Shown: positions 3,365-35,133 of the stretch, piece by piece
How the letters are laid out: each line of letters begins with the position of its first letter
Numbering within the stretch: the stretch's first letter is position 1
Assembly (NCBI GenBank): GCA_009914755.4
Contig: CP068257.2
Coordinates: forward strand, 19,840,001-19,904,000
Direction: 5' to 3'
DNA length: 64,000 bases
Source: the human T2T-CHM13v2.0 reference genome, Homo sapiens
The notes under the pieces: generated by a model
Seen by the model: the letters and a program-made list of their open reading frames with translations, nothing else
What the model was told of the DNA's origin: nothing
Database searches by the model: none
Translations under genes and position numbers: made by a program

Positions 3365-3545
3365 AAAGATAAGGAAGACCAATGGCTAGAGAAAAAAGTG
3401 CAAGGAAATAAAGACCACATCATTTTGGAGCATCTCCAGTGGACCATGGGGTATGAAGTTCAGATTACAGCTGCCAATAGATTGGGATATTCTGAACCGA
3501 CAGTTTATGAATTCAGCATGCCACCAAAGCCCAACATTATTAAAG
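3365..3545 (+). CDS. NCAM2: NCAM2 coding exon, C-terminal half of the second fibronectin type III domain; phase 0 in, phase 1 out
   Basis: Acceptor ttttattgctttcacag|AAAGAT. Translation [60 protein letters not shown] plus the first base of a split codon. Donor AAAG|gtaagc. It is the positional counterpart of the NCAM1 FN3-2 exon (..WNAEYEVYVVAENQQGKSKAAHFVF.. region). The split codon joins the downstream TM exon to give ..[12 protein letters not shown]. Confidence 0.9.
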
Positions 3546-8203: not shown

Positions 8204-10528
8204 TTACTGTTACTGAATCCGGATTGCTAAGGCCTCATAGAAAGTCATATCAGAAACAAACCATAAATTAAGAATTGTTTGATTTAGATCTAGGTTTTGT
8301 GAGGCAATTTTAAAGGCTGTGATGATGGGGAATTTGAGAACCTTTCAGATCTTATAGAGTTAACATTATATATTTGCAAAATATGAAAAAAGATCATATA
8401 ATTTTATAACATTTTATTTTTCATTTTAAAATGAAATATAAATTCAAACATATTAGAAATAAGTTATCTGTAATAAACTAGCACATCTTAAGTCTTTTCA
8501 TTTAAGTTAGAGAAGATATAGAGTTTAAAGGTTAAAGTGGTTTTAATTTATTTTTATATTTCATGCATTGTAGACTGTCAAAATAAGTTTTCTGGAATTT
8601 TGAATTTAAAAACCCATTACTTATGTATATTAGATATATTTAACTTTTTGTAAACAATAGGGTAAGTCTAGAGAACATTTATTTGTTGGACTAAAGCACT
8701 ATTTTTTCGTTTTTTATCAACCTACTCCCTTTACATTCATATAAAATATTACATTGATAACAATAATTTTTCTTGTAAGTATGCTAGTGGATACTACATT
8801 TCTTCTTAGTTTATAATTATTAAAAAATAATTTTGTAATTAATATTTTTCATTTTTTCTTATTAAAGATGTACTTATTTTGAAAGATATGTATTTTGATT
8901 TATTTAAAATGGAGTTTCCATAATCAATCGTGTTCCTTTTCAGAATATTCATGCAGCATAACTCCATCTTATTTTATTTTATAAGAAACAAGAATATTGG
9001 GAAACTATAGCAGATTAATTGTTATAAAATGACTACCAAACTATGGATTTCAAGGCTGATAGCATGGCATTTATTGATTTGTTCTGTAATCTTAATGACT
9101 AAAAATACTACTAAACTTCTGGACTGGATATAATCTAATGTTTAAAAAAATCCTTGGAAATAAATAAACTTACTTTGAAAAACATTTTCACCATTTCTTT
9201 TGGCCTGCCACATGTTTGATAACATTTATATTTAACCAAAAAAGACGTTAGTATCTTTCAGTAACTGCTTCCTTCTTTTCCTGAAGACATGTCTAATTTT
9301 AATATTGACTATCAATATAATTTGATGACAATAATTCTGTTCAACATTTTTTATATTCAATGATAAAATAATTCTGCCCTCTGGGAACATGTAATGCATA
9401 CATAATACATACAAAATAGTTGTTTAGATTTAACAAGCTAAAAAAAATAATATAAATCACCACAAAAAATATTGCTAAAATATTTCAGTTACTTTGTATT
9501 TTCATGGGCTTTTAATTTGTACTTCCAATGAACTATACAGTAAAATTATTTTGATCACCTCAACTCTAGTTTCAAGCAACACTAATAAATCCTTCATCAC
9601 TAGATAATTCAACATGAACAGAAAACAACTTTCAAACACATGGCAAATATGAAAATATTATTTTAGGATTACATTTATGGTTGTTTTAGAACATAAGTTT
9701 AAAAATTCTAAAACAATGGTGAAATAGAAGTCCAATTACCTGGGGAAACTTCATCTTAACCCTCTGGAATTTTCAGTCTAACCTAAATATTGATACTACA
9801 CCTGCAGCAGCATTTAGTTTAGCATGTAGTGAAAAAGTAAGTCTAAAAAATATTTTCATAATCTTTGGTTCCTAAAATTGTTTTAAAAGAGATGCAGTGA
9901 CATATGTCTGGAGTTTGCTTATGGCCAATAGGTTAATGCTTCTAGCTTCTATGCTTATTGCAAATTTTAATTATGTGAATATGCAATTTTCACTTATATT
10001 TGTTGGTAGCTTGTTTATTATTAAAATAGAATGGCTTTTATTAAATATATCCTAAGAAATTACGGTAGAAAAAATTACCATCAAACATTGTGGGATATAT
10101 TGAGATCATATTAAAAGTAGCACTGTGAATTCACCAATAGCACAGTGAAATGACTGGTGACTTTTCCCTTGTAATTTACATTTTCAACTTATAAATGAAA
10201 GATATTCACATGTAAGGGATCAGTGACAGAATTAATTTCTGAGTAATGCAGAATAAACATCAATATTGACCTTTGTATGTTTTTAATATGTGACAATACA
10301 TAGAAATGTTTTATACAAGATTTTAGCCATTCTTGTTTTGTATGAAAGTATTTTTTGTAGGTTTGCATTAATTGTTAATGACTTTGTGTAAATCTTGCAT
10401 TAATTATTCTTTTTTCTTTCCTACTGTCACGTTTTTTCTCTTTTGATTTCCTCGTTTGTAACTCTACCCTTTATTTTCTTAATTATTTCATTCTTATTCT
10501 ATTTTCAAAAACAATTTTCATCATGCAG

Positions 10529-10635
10529 ATAAATGCTGTGAAGCGAATAAAGGCGAAAATGGAAGCCAGTCGTGGCAGCTGAATGCTGCTGGGTTTTCTT
10601 TCATTATAGCCATAAGTTTGTCTTGCGTGTTTTAA
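10529..10635 (+). CDS. NCAM2: Candidate alternative terminal exon of NCAM2 encoding a GPI-anchor-type C-terminus (hydrophilic spacer, small-residue cluster, 13-aa hydrophobic tail, stop); phase 1 in, matching the upstream FN3 exon
   Basis: Acceptor ttctattttcaaaaacaattttcatcatgcag|ATAAATGCTG. With the carried-over G from exon 3365..3545 the frame reads D K C C E A N K G E N G S Q S W Q L N A A G F S F I I A I S L S C V F, then TAA at 10633..10635. This is analogous to NCAM1 exon 15 (the GPI/NCAM-120 exon) and to rodent OCAM/RNCAM-GPI. It is a local GC-richer island in an AT-rich intron. The ORF is below 60 aa and so is absent from the ORF track. Confidence 0.7.
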
Positions 10636-10677
10636 TGTCATTGTTATATCATATGGTATATCCTCTTATGCCCTGAA

Positions 10678-10725
10678 AATTAAAAAAAAATAGTAATAGC
10701 AAGGCTTATCTAAAATTATAATAAA
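10678..10725 (+). promoter_or_regulatory. NCAM2: Candidate polyadenylation signals (ATTAAA at about 10678..10683; AATAAA at 10720..10725) 45-90 nt downstream of the GPI-exon stop codon
   Basis: ccctgaaaATTAAAaaaaaatagtaatagcaaggcttatctaaaattatAATAAAatatttcc follows the TAA at 10633; consistent with an alternative 3' end for a short (GPI) isoform. Confidence 0.5.
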
Positions 10726-12092
10726 ATATTTCCTAAGGTCCAATTAATTATGCATGTATCTTCACCCATGAATGATTAAGCTTTTTCTCCTTCCCCCAAT
10801 TATCAACCTTTTAAGTGGATAATTTGTCAGAAAATCAAATGAAGGAAATTCAATCGGGATTGCTACTTTCAGCTACCAGTTCACTGCATAACATACTTTA
10901 TTCTAAATTTTCCATTAATTCCTAAAGTTGACCTTGTTAAATAGCATGTCACTTGTACTTGAAACTTAAGCCTTTGCTACATCTAATCTTTCATTATTAT
11001 TTTGCAAATAATTAAATATCCATGGCCATACTTTTTAAAAATCATAATTTTATTATGTAGAATTGTGGATCACTACTATTGTTTTTTTTACTGTTACTTT
11101 TAAGTATAAGTTTCCAACTTTATGAACATTTCTAATATTTCAATGTGTTTACCATTTATATAAAACATAAGCATTATATTTTATTAGATGTGTATCCCAA
11201 TTGTGCTGCTTATTTTCCCTTTGTTGAACCAAAATGTCTTAAGGAATAAATGTGAAACAGTTTCCTATTTTAAATTTGAACACCGATTAATTTTTTTCAT
11301 TAAGTGAAAATATCTCTGCAATTTTCCCAGAATGAATGTTAAATTAAATTTGTATATGTCTAAAAAGTTACACCCAATTCACTGGATTTAGATTACATTT
11401 TGAGCTGACCTCAAGTCCTATTGTTCTAACATAAGTAGTTATTTATTACATTTTTCTGGACATCTGGTAGTCAGAATTCTTGCAAGCATTAGAGAGAGAG
11501 AAGAAAATATTATAGACACTCCTTTAAAGAAGTTGAAATCAAGATGGGAAGAAATTGAGATTGGAACTAGATTCCAAATTTCAAAGGAATTTCGATTTGA
11601 GGGAGTAGCATGAAGAATGATTTTTGGTCTTTGCAAATTTTCATTATGTGAATATGCAATTTTCACTTAAGTAATCTTTACCTAAGTAATTTCAAAACAA
11701 GTAAAGAGTGTTTGTGTTTTTCACTTGCAACCACATCTTAACAAGTGACTTTTACTACTTATTTATTTAGGACAATAGGAAACAACCAGATGTACATATA
11801 TGCATAAAAGTGACCATAACATACTTGGTAAATCAAATGATTGGGTTCTGGACTCTGTGATTCATTCATCAAAAGCTATCATTTTGTTGAACAGAAATAT
11901 TTTTCGTGTCTCTTTTTAAAGAGATAGCTACAGAATCTTTTCATATGAGGGCTAGGCCTCTCTTTCATAGTAGATTTTCTTTTAACTTATCTTTTCCAAA
12001 CTCCTAGCTGTCAACTGCTATCCTTTCTTGTAATCTAGTAATAGACCTGTAGACTGCAGAAGCAACCCATCAACCGATAAAACACACTTCTG

Positions 12093-12479
<387 letters not shown>

Positions 12480-15050
12480 TTATAGGGCAAGTTTTGTTTT
12501 TAAATCACCATAACCAATATTCCGTTTATTAAATAACTATCATTGCATATTAAATTTCTCGATATTTGAGACTGAAGAGTTTATATTGGTTACTAATTTG
12601 TAGAAGGCGTTGATAAAAAGATTTCTAGTAACACCTCCAGAAACTGTTTTTTACATTCATTGTAACCTTACTTGATCTTTCCAATAAATTAGAGACATTT
12701 CTGTGAGAATTTCATGTAGAAATGATCTTGACTTAGGAATGACAAAATATTTTTTTGGAGATCACGGAATACTTATTTAGTAAGTTAGTGCAAAGTTTAT
12801 TTATCTTGAAGTTTTACATATCATAACTCAAGGTCACTAAGTGATATAAAGAACATTCAAAGTGAGGTATACACAGAAATAAGATACATCAATTTGGCAT
12901 TTTGAAAAGAACCTAATATTAAAATTATGTTAGCAGAGTTATATACATTTAAAGAGTTGTTTGTTAGATTTTAAGCATCTAAGTGTGGATCTAGTTTTAG
13001 TCCTAAACTTTATAAGCAGTCTGTCATTTGGCCAAATGTTTATTCTTACATGAACACCTATTTCACAACTCTGAGATACACATAAATTCTTTTAAAAATA
13101 TTCTCAGAGATGGTAAAATAATAGGCTTTGTGATCTGCCTTATTTCTCTAAGAAATTAAAAAGTACAAAACTAAACAATAAAGCTATTGCATTCCAATAA
13201 ATAAAACCTTAGACATTTTACATCCTAGGATTTTTTAAAAGTTTTAATGTGTTGCTGAGTTATCTTTTATATTATCTGAACAATACTGTTGTTATATGCA
13301 GCCATAAAAATCAGACAGTTTACTTGTTTATTTTAAAAATGAGTTTGTTACTTTTTTGGCTTTACTATTATTTCATCTGTCTACCCATCTAAGTAAATGT
13401 GATTACTGGTAAGCAAGACATAAAAATTTAAACTTATTTTAAGTATCTTCCTAGTACCATCCAATGATTTTTTTTTCATACAATGGAGTTTTACATAAAA
13501 TTCTGTCTCTGAAGATGTATAAATTTGAGCTTGTGTGTTGAGTGTAAGATTAGTCATTATATATAATCAGAAATATATGTCTATGTCCAATGGTGTGTGT
13601 ATTGTATCGTTCACTGTTAAAATATTTCAAAAGATTGTTTTGACCGTATTACCAGTTATGAAGCTAGATTGATTTACTTATGCATGATTGCCATTATCTG
13701 CATGTGGAATATCAGGATTTTTAAAATATAGATCTGGATATCTCCTTCTTTCTCCTCCCAATCTCTTCTAGTCTGTCTTCTTTCCTCCATTTTACAGTCA
13801 ACGTTACTGGCCTCTCTACCCCAATCAAAACTATAATTACTCATCAGTTCACAGTAAGACCCACAAGTACCATGTTTCAGATATGCTAACAGAGTAGGCC
13901 TAGGAGGTAGCAGTAAATTCTTTCCTATAAAATGTATTCTTACGTGGAAAAACCTTAGGTGAGTTGCTATTTTTGTTCATTTCTTTCCTAATACTATAGG
14001 TCATTAGGACGGACTAAGTTTAATTTTATAAACTCTATATTCATATTATTTCCAGAAGCATTTTGCAAATGCACATATATGCCTTCATTCCTGGTATACA
14101 TGAACAAGATTGAAATTAAAATATGTAAACATTTTAAATATGCCTATCTATAGAAGGGGTTAGATTGATGTTTAATATATATGCAATTTTCACTTACATA
14201 TAGCAAATACATATAAAGACAAATAATTTTATTGCAAATAAATTTGACTTTTTAAATATTCAAGTTCTTTTTAAATTAACAAAGTTACAAGTATGCATCC
14301 TAGTGCACATGTTACACACAATAATATGCAATTTGTGTCAATTGGGAAACCATTATAATTAATTATAATATTTTCTGTGTAAGAATACTCATTCATTATG
14401 TTTGAGTTAAATTAAAGCTAAAACAAGAAAAATTCCAAAGTAGTTTCAACCACGTACAATTAAATTTATGATTAGTCATTTATGTTAAATGAAATATATT
14501 GTACAAGAAAGAATTAAACCATGAACTTTTGGATCTGGAGGTATTCTTAGATACATAAAAATAATTTTAAATATTAATATGGTATATTTACCCTGATAAT
14601 GGAGAAATAAAACCTTAAAATTACAAATTATTTTAATAATTCAAGATGGATACTGATATCAATACAATAATACAATATATTTGGGTCTAGCTTTCAAGAC
14701 TAATAGCCAGTATTATGCATGATAACATTTGAGTTTGTAGTAATTAAGAAATATCCCTAGTCATGTAAAGTTTTCTTTAAAGGTTTAAATTTGATATTAA
14801 TATGATATAAGCAACATTAAGAGCTTGAAATGATCAATTCTGGTATTAAACTAAATATTATCACATATATTTTTGTCTGGCCTTGTAGTATTATGATTTC
14901 ACTCACTGAATAAAGATAAACTATAATATTGATCATACCTAAATATGTAACTTTATGTGTTTTATTATGATTAATCTGTGTAAGAGATAATGTAACATCC
15001 TTTAAATGATCTTTTAATAAGTCCAATTTAATTATGTTTTCTTTTTCTAT

Positions 15051-15560: not shown

Positions 15561-18500
15561 TTTTGGCCATGAATGAATGGAATATATTTCCTCTATTATG
15601 TTTCTGTTCATTGTTTGTAAATTTTAAAATACTAACCTTTGTGGTATAGAAATATGTCATAAAAGCTTCAGCAAATCTAATATATTGGATAGATAGCTGA
15701 AATCTGCATATTTCAAATAACTGAATATACAGATATTCTACAAATTGTCTTTAAAATGATTACAACTTATGTTGAAATTGGTGACGAGGCATTTCCAAAT
15801 TAATCTCATAAATAGTATTGTTTAATCATTAATATTTGATAGTTAAACATAATATTCAGAATATATTTCCACAGTAAATTTTGGGACTTAACTAAAGAAA
15901 AAAATTAACACTTATTAACTCGTTCTCTTACCAATTACCATATAAATTGGAGTATTATTCTAAAGTTAATATGGTTTGTCTTTTAAATACAAAGTTGTAT
16001 TATTCCTTCTACATGTTATACTTACATAATCCCAATTTTTATCTAAGGAAAACATTCCCTCAGTTTAAATCTAATTTTATTTTTTTCAAAATTAGACAAA
16101 GATGAGAGTTTAATATCCATGCTTTGTTTTCCAAAAACCTTTAGTTTTGTTGTCTAAAATTAAGAACTCAACAAAGATCTCTTGTAATAATTCAACATAT
16201 TCCCTGGCTATTAACTAATTTCCAAGCCTGAACTGTCAGTAAATGTTGCACATAGCCTGGAATAGTCCATAACATCTGTATTAGCTAATATTCTGTAAAA
16301 CTAAAAAAAAACAATATCCAAGAAATGTAAAAAATAATTATGTTTAAGAATTCTATTAGTGTTTCTGAGATGGTCTTAACTGCATTTCATCTCCTTTGTT
16401 GGTAGACTATTATTTCATCTACTTTTTAAGGATACTTTCATCCAAGTAGAATTAAACTTAATTTTAATTGTGAACTAATCTAATATTGGTTGTATTAAAT
16501 TTAGATATATTGAAAGTTCTAAAACTATGTATGCTTAAGTTAAATTCAATTAGTCTTTATCATTTCATTTTAGTTAGTAAAAATATGTTACACACTGTAA
16601 AGAATGCATAATAATGAGACACAACTTCAGTTTAGAAAATATATTTTTATTTTTATTCTATGTATGTACTGAATAGGGGCTACGACATAAATCTAGCTAG
16701 TCTTATTTTTTTTCCTAAAAAGCAAGCAATTACAACTACTGTTTTAAATAGTGTACACAATTCATGTACCCCTTTCAAGAATATTTTTCTCTTACATTTT
16801 CATTGATGTCATGTATAACGCTTCTGTTTTAAAGTACTTCTGATCATTTAATTGCATTCGTTTTCATCATAGCTTGTTTTCTTGAAAAAAAAGTATGCTA
16901 TAAGTGTATTGTCCTCAGTATCATCTTATTTAAAACCCTCAACATAATATCCAGCACTGTGTGTAATCCTATGCGTGTGTTTCATAGTATATTAAATGTC
17001 ATTTTATTTTCTGTACCTCTGTGTCTCCATTGTTGTAATAAAGAAAACTGAGGAAAAGCTTTGTTATACGTGTTTTCTTTATTACTGGTACAGCCTTTTT
17101 TGTCCTTGTCGAGTGTTGTCATATCTAACTTGATCAAATTTAATACAAACATTTATTTACTTAGGAGCAGGTAATAAACTTATACTCATTAAGTTACTCA
17201 ATTTTTGGATAACCCATACATCATCAGCAGATTCATAACAATTGTATATTGTAAAAATAATTTCGTGACAATATCAAATATTGTTACTTCCATTGTAAAC
17301 TTGTTCTAGTGTCTTCATAAAAACATCGATCTCTAGTGGGAGGCCAAAATAATCATATATTTCAATAAAACACATGAACATAGTTAACAATTTCAGTAAT
17401 ATAAAGATTGTTAACTAGTCTCCATTGCTAGCAAAAGTCCATAAAGGAAATATAAACACGTAAAGTGATTTTTCTCCAGTTCCTTTGGTCATTTCTTTTG
17501 TTTTGGGCACCAAATGAATAAAGTTGCAGAAATTGATTAACATTCTGTGCTTATCCACTGCAAAGGTATGAAACACAAATAGTAAGTTGAAATTTTGGAA
17601 TAATACTATAAGTAATATAAAAATTATTTAATTAGCTTTTATAGTGTAAAAATAATTTTTGACATAGATATAAACAGAAAAGTCATATTTTTCTTTTAGA
17701 GCAAAATGTTACATTGCCTGATAAATATGAAATGATGCCAAAATTCAAAAGAGAAAATGTTCATTTTCAGGATTTTGGATTGTTTTGGAGCATATTTAAT
17801 TTCTCTTATTCCATGACAGTCCAGTCCAAAATGTATATTTTAATATATACATTATTATACACCTTTTGAAACATGCTTGTGTATATTTCAAAATGAAAAT
17901 TTTAATGCATTTATAAGTCTTATATATTGTAATACTTATACTTCTTTTAAATGATACAATAGTTATAGTAGTTTGAAACATACACCAGAACAGTTATTTC
18001 TTTTTATTATTTTTGTTTTTATTTTTCCTGAATCCCCTTGATAATAGGATGATATCAAATGGAGGGTATCTTGGAATTCTTAGGAATTTGTATGATTACT
18101 GTTGTAGTAAATATATATTACTTTATTAATTTTTTATTGTTCTACTATTCTGGGCCATTGTGAAGAAACTAAAGAGATTTGAGAAAATCTGAAGCTATTA
18201 TAACCAAACTCTATTATTTTATTATATCAACAAACTGAGGATCAGAAAAACCAAATAGTCATTGATATAGTCAAGCAACTTTGATTCTCAGTTTTCCTCC
18301 TATCTTTGTTGTATTACACTAAATCAAAGTTGGTACAAGTAAATTTCTGACCTATAAGTTATATGGTCATATGTCTTAGGTCTAGTTCCTTTGCTATTTT
18401 CTTGATTGGCCTGTGGAGAACAACAACAAAAAATCCCTATGTGTCAGAGGAAAGGCTATGTGTACAACAACCACGGTTTCATCCATTAATCACAGTATTT

Positions 18501-33892: not shown

Positions 33893-34884
33893 CTAAACTG
33901 TTATGCAAGCTAATTCTTAACATGTGTTAAGAATCATTTTGAATGCCTATCAAATTATATTTCTTCCTTATTCTTCTAGATAATACATTATCACCAGTTT
34001 ATTTCTTTTCATTGTTATTATTTTCTGATCCATATTGTTATAGCTGCGGAGTCTACCCTCAGATTCTACTACAAACACGTAACACGTGATTCATCTTCAT
34101 TACTACTTGCTCCACTTGCCATTTCAATTTTATCAATCAGAATACTTCATCTTCTTCCTATTCACCTCTTTCATGGTTACTTTCTTTATGTCTTTTGGGA
34201 TTTCCTGCAACCATATGCCAAAGAAAAGTGGCTTCCACCTTCTCCTACCTTCTCATGGTAGAAACTAACAAAAGGTCATAAATACCATAGCTATAAAATG
34301 TTGCCTTTAATCTATTTGTTAAAATATTAACTGGAGAAATACAGGTGATCCATTTCTTGCCAAATGATGATTCCTAAAATATTCATAAAAAGGTATATTT
34401 AAATACATTCTCTGTTAAAATAACGCGCTCAGAACCATCCATTTTCAAGTTTAAGTTTTAAAACTAACATAATCTCATATAGAAGATTTATTTAACACTT
34501 TTCACAGAAGTTTTGATTATAATTTTCTTTTAACATTATGATCTATTAATGGGTGTCATTTTCTGATAAAGTACATTTAGGGATATGATAATATTCATTA
34601 TCTTCCCCACAGGGATTCAAGAGGTATATTTAAAAGAAGAGGTACTTAGACACTTTTTCTTTGTTAATAAAAAAAAAAGAAGTTTGAAAAAGATAGTCAC
34701 ATAATTAACAAATCAATTGCTTAAAATATTGTTTGAAACCAGGGAATAGGCGTCAACAATCATGAAATTGAATTCTGCCGGTTACTATGACTTTATTCTG
34801 TCTCTTAAATTGAATTATTGGAAAAGATTTATTTTTAAAATAATCATCTAATATTTTCTAATTTAGAGGTTTAATACTTTTTTT

Positions 34885-34886
<2 letters not shown>

Positions 34887-34918
<32 letters not shown>
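34887..34918 (+). repeat. NCAM2: Uninterrupted poly(T) mononucleotide run of 32 nt forming the polypyrimidine tract 10 nt upstream of the TM-exon 3' splice site
   Basis: ctttttttcc(T)32acttttaag|ACACGCTG. Not attached to any Alu. A long homopolymer of this kind is expected to vary in length. Confidence 0.85.
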
Positions 34919-34928: not shown

Positions 34929-35133
34929 ACACGCTGTTTAATGGTCTTGGGCTTGGAGCAGTAATTGGCCTGGGAGTTGCTGCACTGCTGCTAATTCTTG
35001 TGGTAACAGACGTCAGCTGCTTCTTTATTCGGCAATGTGGGTTGCTGATGTGCATCACTAGGAGAATGTGTGGAAAGAAAAGTGGCTCCAGTGGCAAAAG
35101 TAAAGAACTCGAAGAAGGAAAAGCTGCATACCT
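34929..35133 (+). CDS. NCAM2: NCAM2 transmembrane exon (membrane-proximal stalk, TM helix, start of cytoplasmic tail); phase 1 in, phase 2 out
   Basis: Acceptor (T)32acttttaag|ACACG. With the G from the upstream exon the frame reads [68 protein letters not shown] plus CT. Donor CCT|gtgagt. This closely parallels NCAM1 exon 16 (..GAIVGILIVIFVLLLVVVDITCYFLNKCGLFMCIAVNLCGKAGPGAKGKDMEEGKAAF..). The antisense ORF 34924..35148 in the track is spurious. Confidence 0.9.

What the first reader, a model, noticed from the sequence alone, without database searches (positions are those of the whole stretch)
10529..10635. Short alternative terminal exon encoding a GPI-anchor-type tail for NCAM2, invisible to the >=60-aa ORF track
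In the 31-kb intron between the FN3 exon (3365..3545) and the TM exon (34929..35133) there is a 107-nt segment with a good 3' splice site (..ttttcatcatgcag|AT). Its frame is fixed by the phase-1 exit of the FN3 exon (the carried-over G plus AT gives Asp). In that frame it encodes DKCCEANKGENGSQSWQLNAAGFSFIIAISLSCVF*. This has the layout of a GPI-attachment signal: a hydrophilic stretch, a cluster of small residues (N-A-A-G, candidate omega region), then a 13-residue hydrophobic tail ending directly in a stop. ATTAAA and AATAAA poly(A) signals lie 45-90 nt downstream. In NCAM1, the GPI isoform NCAM-120 terminates in exon 15, which sits at this position between the FN3 and TM exons. Rodent NCAM2 (OCAM/RNCAM) also has a GPI-linked form. 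This exon predicts that human NCAM2 can switch between a transmembrane and a lipid-anchored isoform by choosing this terminal exon or the TM exon. I cannot tell from the sequence alone whether it is in the current reference annotation.
Basis: partly seen in the sequence, partly recalled or inferred. Interest (0 to 1): 0.8.

Follow-up and report, generated by a model that had tools for sequence, protein, structure and literature searches.

The report
Human NCAM2 GPI-anchor terminal exon
This short segment is the human copy of an ancient alternative last exon of the cell-adhesion gene NCAM2; it replaces the membrane-spanning tail with a lipid (GPI) anchor signal, an isoform known in rodents since 1997, so the reading is correct but not new.

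Summary
The exon at 3365..3545 is identical to human NCAM2 FnIII2 (PDB 2KBG/2JLL) and exits in phase 1. A good acceptor (cag|AT) at 10529 opens a 35-codon frame, DKCCEANKGENGSQSWQLNAAGFSFIIAISLSCVF*. The reverse primer published as specific for the mouse OCAM-GPI transcript maps to 10567..10586 at 18 of 20 bases. Three genomic contigs from other vertebrates, one from a viper sequencing run, carry the same exon: CAG|A acceptor, Asp junction codon, 35 codons without indels, stop at the identical position, dN/dS 0.24-0.49. Similarity ends exactly at the stop codon. It is the only phase-compatible GPI-like ORF in the 31-kb intron. Two details need correcting. The best conserved omega site is Ser13 of the tail (S-Q-S, 22-residue propeptide), not N-A-A-G. 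The proximal ATTAAA and AATAAA are not conserved, whereas a conserved AATAAA plus GU-rich block lies 6.4 kb downstream at 17037. Use of the exon in human tissue and its status in current annotation could not be tested here. Reviews already describe TM and GPI NCAM2 isoforms for human and mouse. Verdict: a real, conserved feature of a kind already known; modest interest.

The parts
3365..3545 (+). Last FnIII2 exon of NCAM2, shared by both isoforms. It is 181 nt, exits in phase 1, and has the donor AAG|gtaagc.
   Evidence: Translation. 60/60 identity to PDB 2KBG and 2JLL, 'Neural cell adhesion molecule 2'. 87% identity to the orthologous exon in L001.
10384..10440 (+). Deeply conserved intronic element 90-145 nt upstream of the acceptor (ttgtgtaaatcttgcattaattattc..ttttctttcctactgtcac). 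By inference, a splicing or poly(A)-choice regulatory element and/or a distal branch-point region.
   Evidence: 77-87% identity between human and L011/L012/L013, higher than the CDS (alignment A1).
10441..10528 (+). Pyrimidine-rich tract, candidate branch point CTTAT (A at 10496, 32 nt before the acceptor G at 10528), and the 3' splice site ...catcatgcag.
   Evidence: Sequence. The CAG|A acceptor is invariant in the four species. PWM score 7.82. The branch point was read by eye and is inferred.
10529..10635 (+). Coding part of the alternative terminal exon: (G)AT...TTT TAA, encoding DKCCEANKGENGSQSWQLNAAGFSFIIAISLSCVF*. Predicted residues 693-727 of a 727-aa GPI isoform.
   Evidence: D693 as the junction Asp comes from PMC4674770.
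10565..10573 (+). Codons for S13-Q14-S15 of the tail (AGC CAG TCG), the best candidate for omega, omega+1 and omega+2 (Ser705 in the predicted isoform).
   Evidence: Of the positions allowed in all four species, only this one gives a 7-residue spacer plus a 13-residue hydrophobic end. This is a rule-based inference, not a predictor run.
10679..10725 (+). Proximal poly(A) hexamers, ATTAAA 10679..10684 and AATAAA 10720..10725. They are candidate human 3' ends.
   Evidence: Present in the sequence. Not conserved in A1; the nearest hexamers in the orthologues lie 458-733 nt after the stop.
16962..17101 (+). Second conserved island, with AATAAA at 17037..17042 and a conserved GT/T-rich element 20-40 nt downstream. 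It is a candidate conserved poly(A) site for the GPI terminal exon, which would imply a 3'UTR of about 6.4 kb.
   Evidence: 73% identity over 141 nt, collinear with L013 6723..6859. The core TTGTAATAAAGAAAACTGA is identical. Only one other species is available.
34929..35133 (+). Transmembrane exon, the competing downstream choice. Its acceptor is ttttaag|AC, preceded by a T run of about 40 nt.
   Evidence: PWM score 3.53.

Best explanation
10529..10635 is the coding part of the human orthologue of the NCAM2 (OCAM/RNCAM) GPI-isoform terminal exon, the counterpart of NCAM1 exon 15. Mechanism: the donor at 3545 can be spliced either to the acceptor at 10529 or to the TM exon at 34929. Choosing 10529, together with cleavage and polyadenylation downstream of the stop, gives an mRNA for a 727-aa precursor. 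That precursor keeps the whole ectodomain up to K692 and ends in 35 exon-specific residues. In the ER, the GPI transamidase would cleave at a small residue, most likely Ser13 of the tail (Ser705). It would remove the 22-residue propeptide QSWQLNAAGFSFIIAISLSCVF and attach GPI, leaving a lipid-anchored NCAM2 with no transmembrane or cytoplasmic domain. Shown here: the exon anatomy, orthology to the mouse GPI-specific sequence, and conservation as a coding exon from human to a snake. Inferred: the omega site, the position of the 3' end, regulation through the conserved upstream intronic block, and actual use of the exon in human tissue.
For: Gene identity. Frame, acceptor and stop. The mouse OCAM-GPI-specific primer maps inside the exon at 18/20, 0 expected by chance. 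Orthologous exons in L011, L012 and L013 share the CAG|A acceptor, a GAT/GAC junction Asp, 35 codons with no indels (while both flanks are full of indels), and a stop (TAA/TAA/TGA) at the same position; dN/dS is 0.24-0.49. L012 comes from a Macrovipera lebetinus WGS run. blastn similarity stops at 10636/10637, which is the stop codon. The last 13 residues are hydrophobic in all four species (mean Kyte-Doolittle 2.35-3.39), with no charged residue in the last 18. It is the only such ORF in the intron. GPI and TM isoforms of NCAM2 are documented in mouse tissue (PMC7949136; PMC4395419), and a review states that both are transcribed in human and mouse (PMC8471948).
Against: No human transcript, junction or 3'-end data could be examined. 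A 2010 paper described human NCAM2 as having 'no known alternative splicing forms' (PMC2964649). The proximal poly(A) hexamers are not conserved. No GPI predictor could be run. Homology to mouse rests on a single 20-nt primer. The taxa of L011 and L013 are unknown, and the assignment of L012 to viper assumes the contig is not a contaminant.
Confidence: 0.85

Rival explanations
1. The exon is a conserved relic. It works in rodents and other vertebrates, but in humans it is rarely or never spliced, so human NCAM2 is in effect TM-only.
For: No human expression evidence was available here. A 2010 paper reports no known human splice forms. The original human cDNA and human constructs in the literature I read are the TM form.
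Against: The human acceptor, junction codon, ORF length, stop and hydrophobic tail are all intact, and the upstream regulatory block is 77-87% conserved. A 35-codon ORF free of constraint would be expected to pick up stops or indels. The review PMC8471948 states that both isoforms are transcribed in human.
Confidence: 0.1
2. The exon is used, but the tail is not a GPI signal. It would give a secreted form, or a form held in the membrane by an uncleaved short hydrophobic C-terminus.
For: No GPI predictor or experiment was run here. The hydrophobic stretch is short (13-18 residues). Soluble OCAM of about the size of the GPI form is found in culture medium (PMC4395419).
Against: The layout matches the canonical GPI signal in all four species: a small-x-small triplet, a 7-residue spacer, then 13 uncharged hydrophobic residues ending at the C-terminus. 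The shorter mouse isoform is reported to be enriched in the insoluble fraction, which the authors attribute to lipid rafts (PMC8304497), and the cited papers call it GPI-anchored. A purely secreted form would not need a conserved hydrophobic end.
Confidence: 0.04
3. It is a chance ORF behind a chance AG in an AT-rich intron, or a conserved non-coding element (enhancer, antisense exon) that merely overlaps an open frame.
For: About 2% of simulated introns give a similar ORF behind a good acceptor. The upstream non-coding block is even more conserved than the ORF.
Against: Conservation is frame-aware: there are no indels across 107 nt, the stop sits at the same codon in four species, differences are enriched at third positions (for example 5/9/11 and 6/7/13), and dN/dS is below 0.5. 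A transcript-specific mouse primer maps here. No Rfam family matches.
Confidence: 0.01

Closest known systems
Mouse/rat NCAM2 (OCAM, RNCAM) GPI-anchored isoform, NCAM2.2 / OCAM-GPI (Yoshihara et al. 1997; Alenius & Bohm 1997, 2003, as cited in PMC4395419 and PMC8471948)
   Same: It is the same gene (orthologue) and has the same position after the FnIII2 exon. The mouse GPI-specific primer sequence CAGTCATGGCATCTGAATGC (Q-S-W-H-L-N-A) matches human CAGTCGTGGCAGCTGAATGC (Q-S-W-Q-L-N-A). The outcome is also the same: a shorter, lipid-anchored isoform without a cytoplasmic tail.
   Different: I found only 20 nt of mouse exon sequence, so the full mouse tail, its omega site and its 3'UTR were not compared. 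The 3'-end primer of the mouse Ncam2.2 cDNA has no counterpart in the human window. The experimental evidence (western blots, RT-PCR) is from rodents, not human.
NCAM1 exon 15 / NCAM-120 (GPI-anchored NCAM1)
   Same: It is the paralogous gene and uses the same logic: an alternative terminal exon lying between the last FnIII exon and the TM exon, encoding a short GPI signal (established knowledge; restated in PMC7949136, and PMC9360506).
   Different: It is a different gene. The NCAM2 tail carries an invariant Cys-Cys pair, and I did not check whether NCAM1 has one.
Drosophila Fasciclin 2 GPI-linked isoforms (NCAM family)
   Same: Alternative splicing gives TM and GPI-linked isoforms of an Ig5-FN3x2 adhesion molecule (bioRxiv 10.64898/2026.03.13.710942).
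   Different: This is an invertebrate orthologue of the whole NCAM family. No exon-level homology was tested or is expected to be detectable.

Membership tests
NCAM2 GPI-isoform terminal exon (orthologue of rodent OCAM-GPI / NCAM2.2) | Lies in the NCAM2 gene between the last FnIII2 exon and the TM exon, on the coding strand | tested here: met
   The FnIII2 exon is 60/60 identical to PDB 2KBG/2JLL NCAM2. The TM exon at 34929 joins in frame. The candidate exon lies at 10529, between the two.
NCAM2 GPI-isoform terminal exon (orthologue of rodent OCAM-GPI / NCAM2.2) | A usable 3' splice site in the phase set by the upstream exon, opening a frame that ends in a stop within the exon | tested here: met
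   cag|AT; G+AT = Asp; 35 codons, then TAA. PWM score is equal to that of the constitutive FN3 acceptor. The AG is invariant in four species.
NCAM2 GPI-isoform terminal exon (orthologue of rodent OCAM-GPI / NCAM2.2) | Sequence homology to the isoform-specific part of the rodent GPI transcript | tested here: met
   The mouse OCAM-GPI reverse primer (PMC4395419) matches window 10567..10586 at 18/20, with 0 of 100 shuffles matching. The test is limited to 20 nt.
NCAM2 GPI-isoform terminal exon (orthologue of rodent OCAM-GPI / NCAM2.2) | Conserved as a coding sequence in other vertebrates | tested here: met
   L011, L012 (viper run) and L013 have the same length and the same stop position, with no indels and dN/dS 0.24-0.49.
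NCAM2 GPI-isoform terminal exon (orthologue of rodent OCAM-GPI / NCAM2.2) | Spliced to the FnIII2 exon and polyadenylated in human tissue | not testable with these tools
   No human transcript, EST or junction resource was available. The protein collections held only genomic read-through ORFs.
C-terminal GPI-attachment signal | Omega site with small residues at omega and omega+2, a polar spacer of about 5-10 residues, then 10-20 uncharged hydrophobic residues ending at the C-terminus | tested here: met
   S/G13, Q14, S15; spacer W/L-Q/H-L-N/S-A-A-G; 13 hydrophobic residues with mean KD 2.35-3.39; no charged residue in the last 18, in all four species. This was a rule check only.
C-terminal GPI-attachment signal | Positive call by a trained predictor (big-PI, PredGPI, NetGPI) | not testable with these tools
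   No such predictor is installed and there is no network access.
C-terminal GPI-attachment signal | N-terminal ER signal peptide on the same polypeptide | not tested
   The 5' exons of NCAM2 lie outside the window. NCAM2 is an established type I surface protein (established knowledge).
C-terminal GPI-attachment signal | Experimental GPI linkage (PI-PLC release, or ethanolamine-phosphate-modified C-terminal peptide) | not testable with these tools
   This is a wet-lab test. The rodent papers cited call the shorter isoform GPI-anchored.
Alternative last exon with its own poly(A) site | A functional poly(A) signal downstream of the stop and upstream of the next exon | tested here: inconclusive
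   The human ATTAAA at +44 and AATAAA at +85 are not conserved. A conserved AATAAA with a GU/U-rich element lies at 17037, matched in L013 only. No 3'-end sequencing data were available.

The most novel reading that the evidence does not exclude
The human exon may be missing or under-annotated in the reference gene set. The TM/GPI switch of NCAM2 may be an ancient amniote-wide device, controlled by a 57-nt intronic element (10384..10440) that is conserved between human and snake more strongly than the coding sequence itself, and ending at a conserved distal poly(A) site 6.4 kb downstream. The invariant vicinal Cys-Cys (D-x-C-C-E-A) lies upstream of every plausible omega site and so stays in the mature lipid-anchored form. 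It could give the GPI isoform a property the TM form lacks, such as disulfide-linked dimerisation at the membrane.
Probability: 0.2. Interest if true: 0.45.

Novelty: already known. Interest (0 to 1): 0.25.

Why it matters
NCAM2 lies on chromosome 21. The papers read here link it to olfactory axon wiring, synapse maintenance, Alzheimer's disease and Down syndrome. Which anchor the protein carries decides whether it can signal through a cytoplasmic tail or instead sits in lipid rafts and can be shed. Human studies that use only the TM cDNA or only C-terminal antibodies would miss the GPI form. Fixing the human exon, its likely omega site (Ser705) and its candidate regulatory and poly(A) elements gives concrete targets for isoform-specific primers, antibodies and splice-switching experiments. 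The biology itself, TM versus GPI NCAM2, is already established in rodents and assumed for human in reviews.

Tried and rejected
1. Word-indexed protein search with the spliced 52-aa and 95-aa peptides. It returned only genomic read-through ORFs of the FN3 exon from Logan contigs and no spliced NCAM2 of any isoform. Absence of the tail there therefore says nothing.

2. The contig L001/L002 carrying the rodent-like FN3 exon, with 5 kb downstream. It does not reach a GPI exon.

3. The antisense 52-aa ORF 10483..10641(-) as a handle for orthologous contigs. No candidates were found.

4. A metagenome scan with CAGTCRTGGCAKCTGAATGC. It gave four hits, none with homology to the human region beyond the 20-mer itself, so all are chance matches.

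5. The second mouse primers, the OCAM-GPI forward primer and the Ncam2.2 cDNA reverse primer. Neither matches the window. The forward primer presumably lies in an exon upstream of the window, and the reverse one in diverged 3'UTR.

6. Full-text search for the peptide and for the human-version primer. Only the mouse primer paper came up.

7. Yoshihara 1997 (PMID 9221781 / PMC6573213). The paper is not held.

8. Searches for human transcript identifiers. They yielded only a 2010 statement that no splice forms were known.

The colinear 34-aa tail was accepted and gave the key orthologues.

10. Cluster look-up to identify the taxa of L011 and L013. It gave no names. An Rfam scan of the loci and of the window found nothing.

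11. The bacterial promoter/terminator scan is irrelevant for a eukaryotic intron. The small hairpin it flagged at 10573..10591 is not preserved in L011.

12. I rejected N-A-A-G as the omega region and rejected the proximal hexamers as a conserved 3' end.

Full report
OBSERVATION

The window carries part of human NCAM2. The exon 3365..3545 translates to [60 protein letters not shown]. This is 60/60 identical to the solved NCAM2 FnIII2 structures 2KBG and 2JLL. The exon is 181 nt long, so it leaves one base (G) for the next exon.

At 10505..10528 the sequence reads tcaaaaacaattttcatcatgcag, followed by ATAAATGC.... G+AT gives Asp, and the frame stays open for 35 codons: DKCCEANKGENGSQSWQLNAAGFSFIIAISLSCVF, with the stop TAA at 10633..10635. 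The TM exon at 34929..35133 joins in the same phase (G+AC = Asp, then [25 protein letters not shown]...). The ORF has no in-frame start codon, so a mechanical ORF list misses it even at 20 aa.

IS IT MORE THAN CHANCE?

- **Acceptor strength.** A crude acceptor PWM, with frequencies recalled from consensus tables (approximate), scores 10529 at 7.82. The constitutive FN3 exon acceptor scores 7.90 and the TM exon acceptor 3.53. The candidate ranks 25th of 1764 AG sites in the intron.
- **Uniqueness in the intron.** I translated from every AG of the 31-kb intron in the required phase and applied a filter: a 12-residue uncharged hydrophobic end, plus a small-x-small triplet 17-30 residues from the end. 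Only this ORF passes, and only 10529 has a good acceptor. The antisense strand gives none.
- **Simulation.** Of 300 simulated introns with the same trinucleotide make-up, 6 have such an ORF behind an acceptor scoring >=5.

On the human sequence alone the case is therefore suggestive (about 2% by chance) but not decisive.

ORTHOLOGY AND CONSERVATION

Two independent lines settle the question.

First, PMC4395419 gives RT-PCR primers specific for the mouse OCAM-GPI transcript. The reverse complement of the reverse primer, CAGTCATGGCATCTGAATGC, matches window 10567..10586 (CAGTCGTGGCAGCTGAATGC) with two mismatches. It matches nowhere else in 64 kb, and no shuffle gives a match. In frame, the mouse sequence reads Q-S-W-H-L-N-A and the human reads Q-S-W-Q-L-N-A.

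Second, an exhaustive HMMER search with the 34-aa tail (window 10531..10632) found three ORFs, P0037, P0039 and P0040, that run from intron into the homologous exon on genomic Logan contigs. Their DNA was retrieved as L011, L012 and L013. All three show the following:

- a CAG|A acceptor;
- a GAT or GAC junction Asp;
- exactly 35 codons with no indel, although both flanks are full of indels;
- a stop (TAA, TAA, TGA) at the same codon.

P0040 appeared to read through the stop only because the gene caller treated TGA as Trp.

The four peptides are:

| Source | Tail peptide |
|---|---|
| human | DKCCEANKGENGSQSWQLNAAGFSFIIAISLSCVF |
| L011 | DTCCEARTGGNGSQSWHLSAAGFVFFIVITLLCVF |
| L012 | DTCCEAHKGGIGSQSLQLNAAGFVFLIVISILCIF |
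| L013 | DRCCEATRPENGGQSLQLNAAGFSFIVVITFWCMF |

Pairwise dN/dS is 0.24-0.49, with third-position differences predominating. blastn similarity to human starts at 10363-10387 and ends at 10636/10637, which is the stop codon. It is the only alignable block in window 8500-13000.

L012 comes from run SRR32478113. PMC12377087 identifies that run as whole-genome sequencing of the viper Macrovipera lebetinus. Unless the contig is a contaminant, the exon is conserved across amniotes. The taxa of L011 and L013 could not be identified. L011 is closer to L012 than to human.

ANATOMY OF THE TAIL

Seventeen of the 35 positions are invariant: D.CCEA.....G.QS..L.AAGF.F...I...C.F. The last 13 residues are hydrophobic in all four species (mean Kyte-Doolittle 2.35-3.39), and none of the last 18 is charged.

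I tested every position for omega in {G,A,S,N,D,C}, omega+1 not Pro, and omega+2 in {G,A,S}, required in all four species. Four positions remain: 4, 13, 19 and 20.

- Position 13 (S/S/S/G, then invariant Q, then invariant S) gives a 22-residue propeptide with a 7-residue spacer and a 13-residue hydrophobic end. This is the canonical layout as I know it from the GPI-signal literature.
That is shorter than any mammalian GPI propeptide I can recall.

I therefore place omega at tail residue 13. PMC4674770 numbers the junction Asp as D693. On that numbering omega is Ser705, and the precursor is 727 aa. No GPI predictor could be run, so this is a rule-based inference.

The invariant Cys-Cys pair (residues 695-696) lies upstream of every plausible omega site, so it would remain in the mature protein.

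THE 3' END

The proximal hexamers are real but not conserved. In alignment A1 the other species have no hexamer at those columns. Their nearest AATAAA or ATTAAA lies 458-733 nt after the stop.

L013, the only contig long enough to show it, shares a second collinear island with the window: L013 6723..6859 against window 16962..17101, 73% identity. Its core TTGTAATAAAGAAAACTGA is identical in both. It is followed 20-40 nt later by a conserved GT/T-rich stretch. The gaps in this alignment are not multiples of three. This looks like a conserved poly(A) site, with AATAAA at 17037..17042.

This island may be the ancestral 3' end of the GPI terminal exon, which would give a 3'UTR of about 6.4 kb. In that case the proximal hexamers would be lineage-specific alternatives. 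This rests on a single species and remains a lead.

REGULATORY FLANK

Within the upstream intron, 10384..10440 is 77-87% identical between human and the three other species. That is more than the CDS (76-79%) and far more than the pyrimidine tract between them (53-58%, many gaps) or the sequence after the stop (38-55%).

Intronic conservation of this kind next to an alternative exon usually marks splicing control, but that is an inference and nothing here tests it. A branch-point-like CTTAT, with its A at 10496, lies 32 nt before the acceptor G at 10528 (read by eye).

MECHANISM

The choice is between two last-exon routes.

- **GPI route.** The donor at 3545 joins 10529, and the transcript is cleaved and polyadenylated downstream. 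This gives the GPI-signal isoform.
- **TM route.** The proximal exon is skipped and the donor joins 34929. This gives the TM and cytoplasmic isoform.

The GPI precursor would be processed by the ER transamidase at about Ser705.

The steps shown here are exon structure, orthology and coding conservation. The steps inferred are the omega site, the 3' end, regulation, and use of the exon in human tissue.

COMPARISON WITH WHAT IS KNOWN

TM and GPI isoforms of NCAM2 (OCAM/RNCAM) have been known in rodents since 1997, as cited. Both are seen as two bands in mouse olfactory bulb membranes (PMC7949136). The shorter form is enriched in the insoluble fraction, which the authors attribute to lipid rafts (PMC8304497).

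The review PMC8471948 states that two isoforms are transcribed in both human and mouse, and PMC9360506 repeats the two-isoform picture. A 2010 paper described the human gene as having no known alternative splice forms. Human annotation may therefore have lagged behind, and I could not query current GENCODE or RefSeq.

The arrangement parallels NCAM1 exon 15 (NCAM-120) and the GPI isoforms of Drosophila Fas2.

VERDICT

The finding is correct and is now well supported by conservation, but it is the human orthologue of an already known isoform-defining exon. The modest extras are:

- conservation from human to snake;
- an upstream intronic block more conserved than the exon itself;
- a corrected omega site;
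- non-conserved proximal poly(A) signals, against a conserved distal poly(A)-like site;
- an invariant Cys-Cys pair that stays in the mature GPI form.

Interest is 0.25.

Noticed in passing
window 16962..17101 (AATAAA at 17037..17042); L013 6723..6859: A second conserved island in the intron, collinear with L013. It has an identical TTGTAATAAAGAAAACTGA core and a conserved GT/T-rich element 20-40 nt downstream, so it looks like a conserved poly(A) site 6.4 kb after the GPI-exon stop.
   Followed up: partly
window 10384..10440: This intronic block, 90-145 nt upstream of the acceptor, is 77-87% identical between human and three other vertebrates (one from a viper run). That is more conserved than the coding part of the exon (76-79%).
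   Followed up: partly
window 10535..10540 (codons TGC TGT; tail residues 3-4): An invariant vicinal Cys-Cys within an invariant D-x-C-C-E-A motif. It lies upstream of any plausible omega site, so it would stay in the mature GPI-anchored protein. Its function is unknown.
   Followed up: no
window 10546..10551: A canonical AATAAA lies inside the coding part of the exon (GCG AAT AAA GGC), with a T-rich stretch about 45 nt downstream. It is not conserved in L011, L012 or L013. It could act as a cryptic human-lineage poly(A) signal.
   Followed up: no
window 34877..34918: An uninterrupted T run of about 40 nt lies directly upstream of the TM exon acceptor (ttttaag|AC). The acceptor scores low on a short PWM (3.53) but has an extreme polypyrimidine tract.
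   Followed up: no
L011 1598..1634; L012 2678..2714: The two non-human contigs share a 24-nt identical motif, ACTATGCATATTGCTGTGCCTTTA, about 500 nt after the stop. It has no counterpart in the human window at up to 3 mismatches.
   Followed up: partly
window 10559..10567 (tail residues 11-13, N-G-S): The human tail has an N-X-S glycosylation sequon just before, and overlapping, the predicted omega Ser. It is present in L011 but absent in L012 (I-G-S) and L013 (N-G-G).
   Followed up: no
P0040 / L013 1271..1273: The collection's gene call read through the exon's TGA stop as Trp, which means it used a non-standard genetic code. This explains the 'translates_to_query: no' flag for P0040/L013; the same flag on the other two Logan loci (L011, L012) was not examined. 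The ORF boundaries of such calls should not be trusted for eukaryotic DNA.
   Followed up: yes
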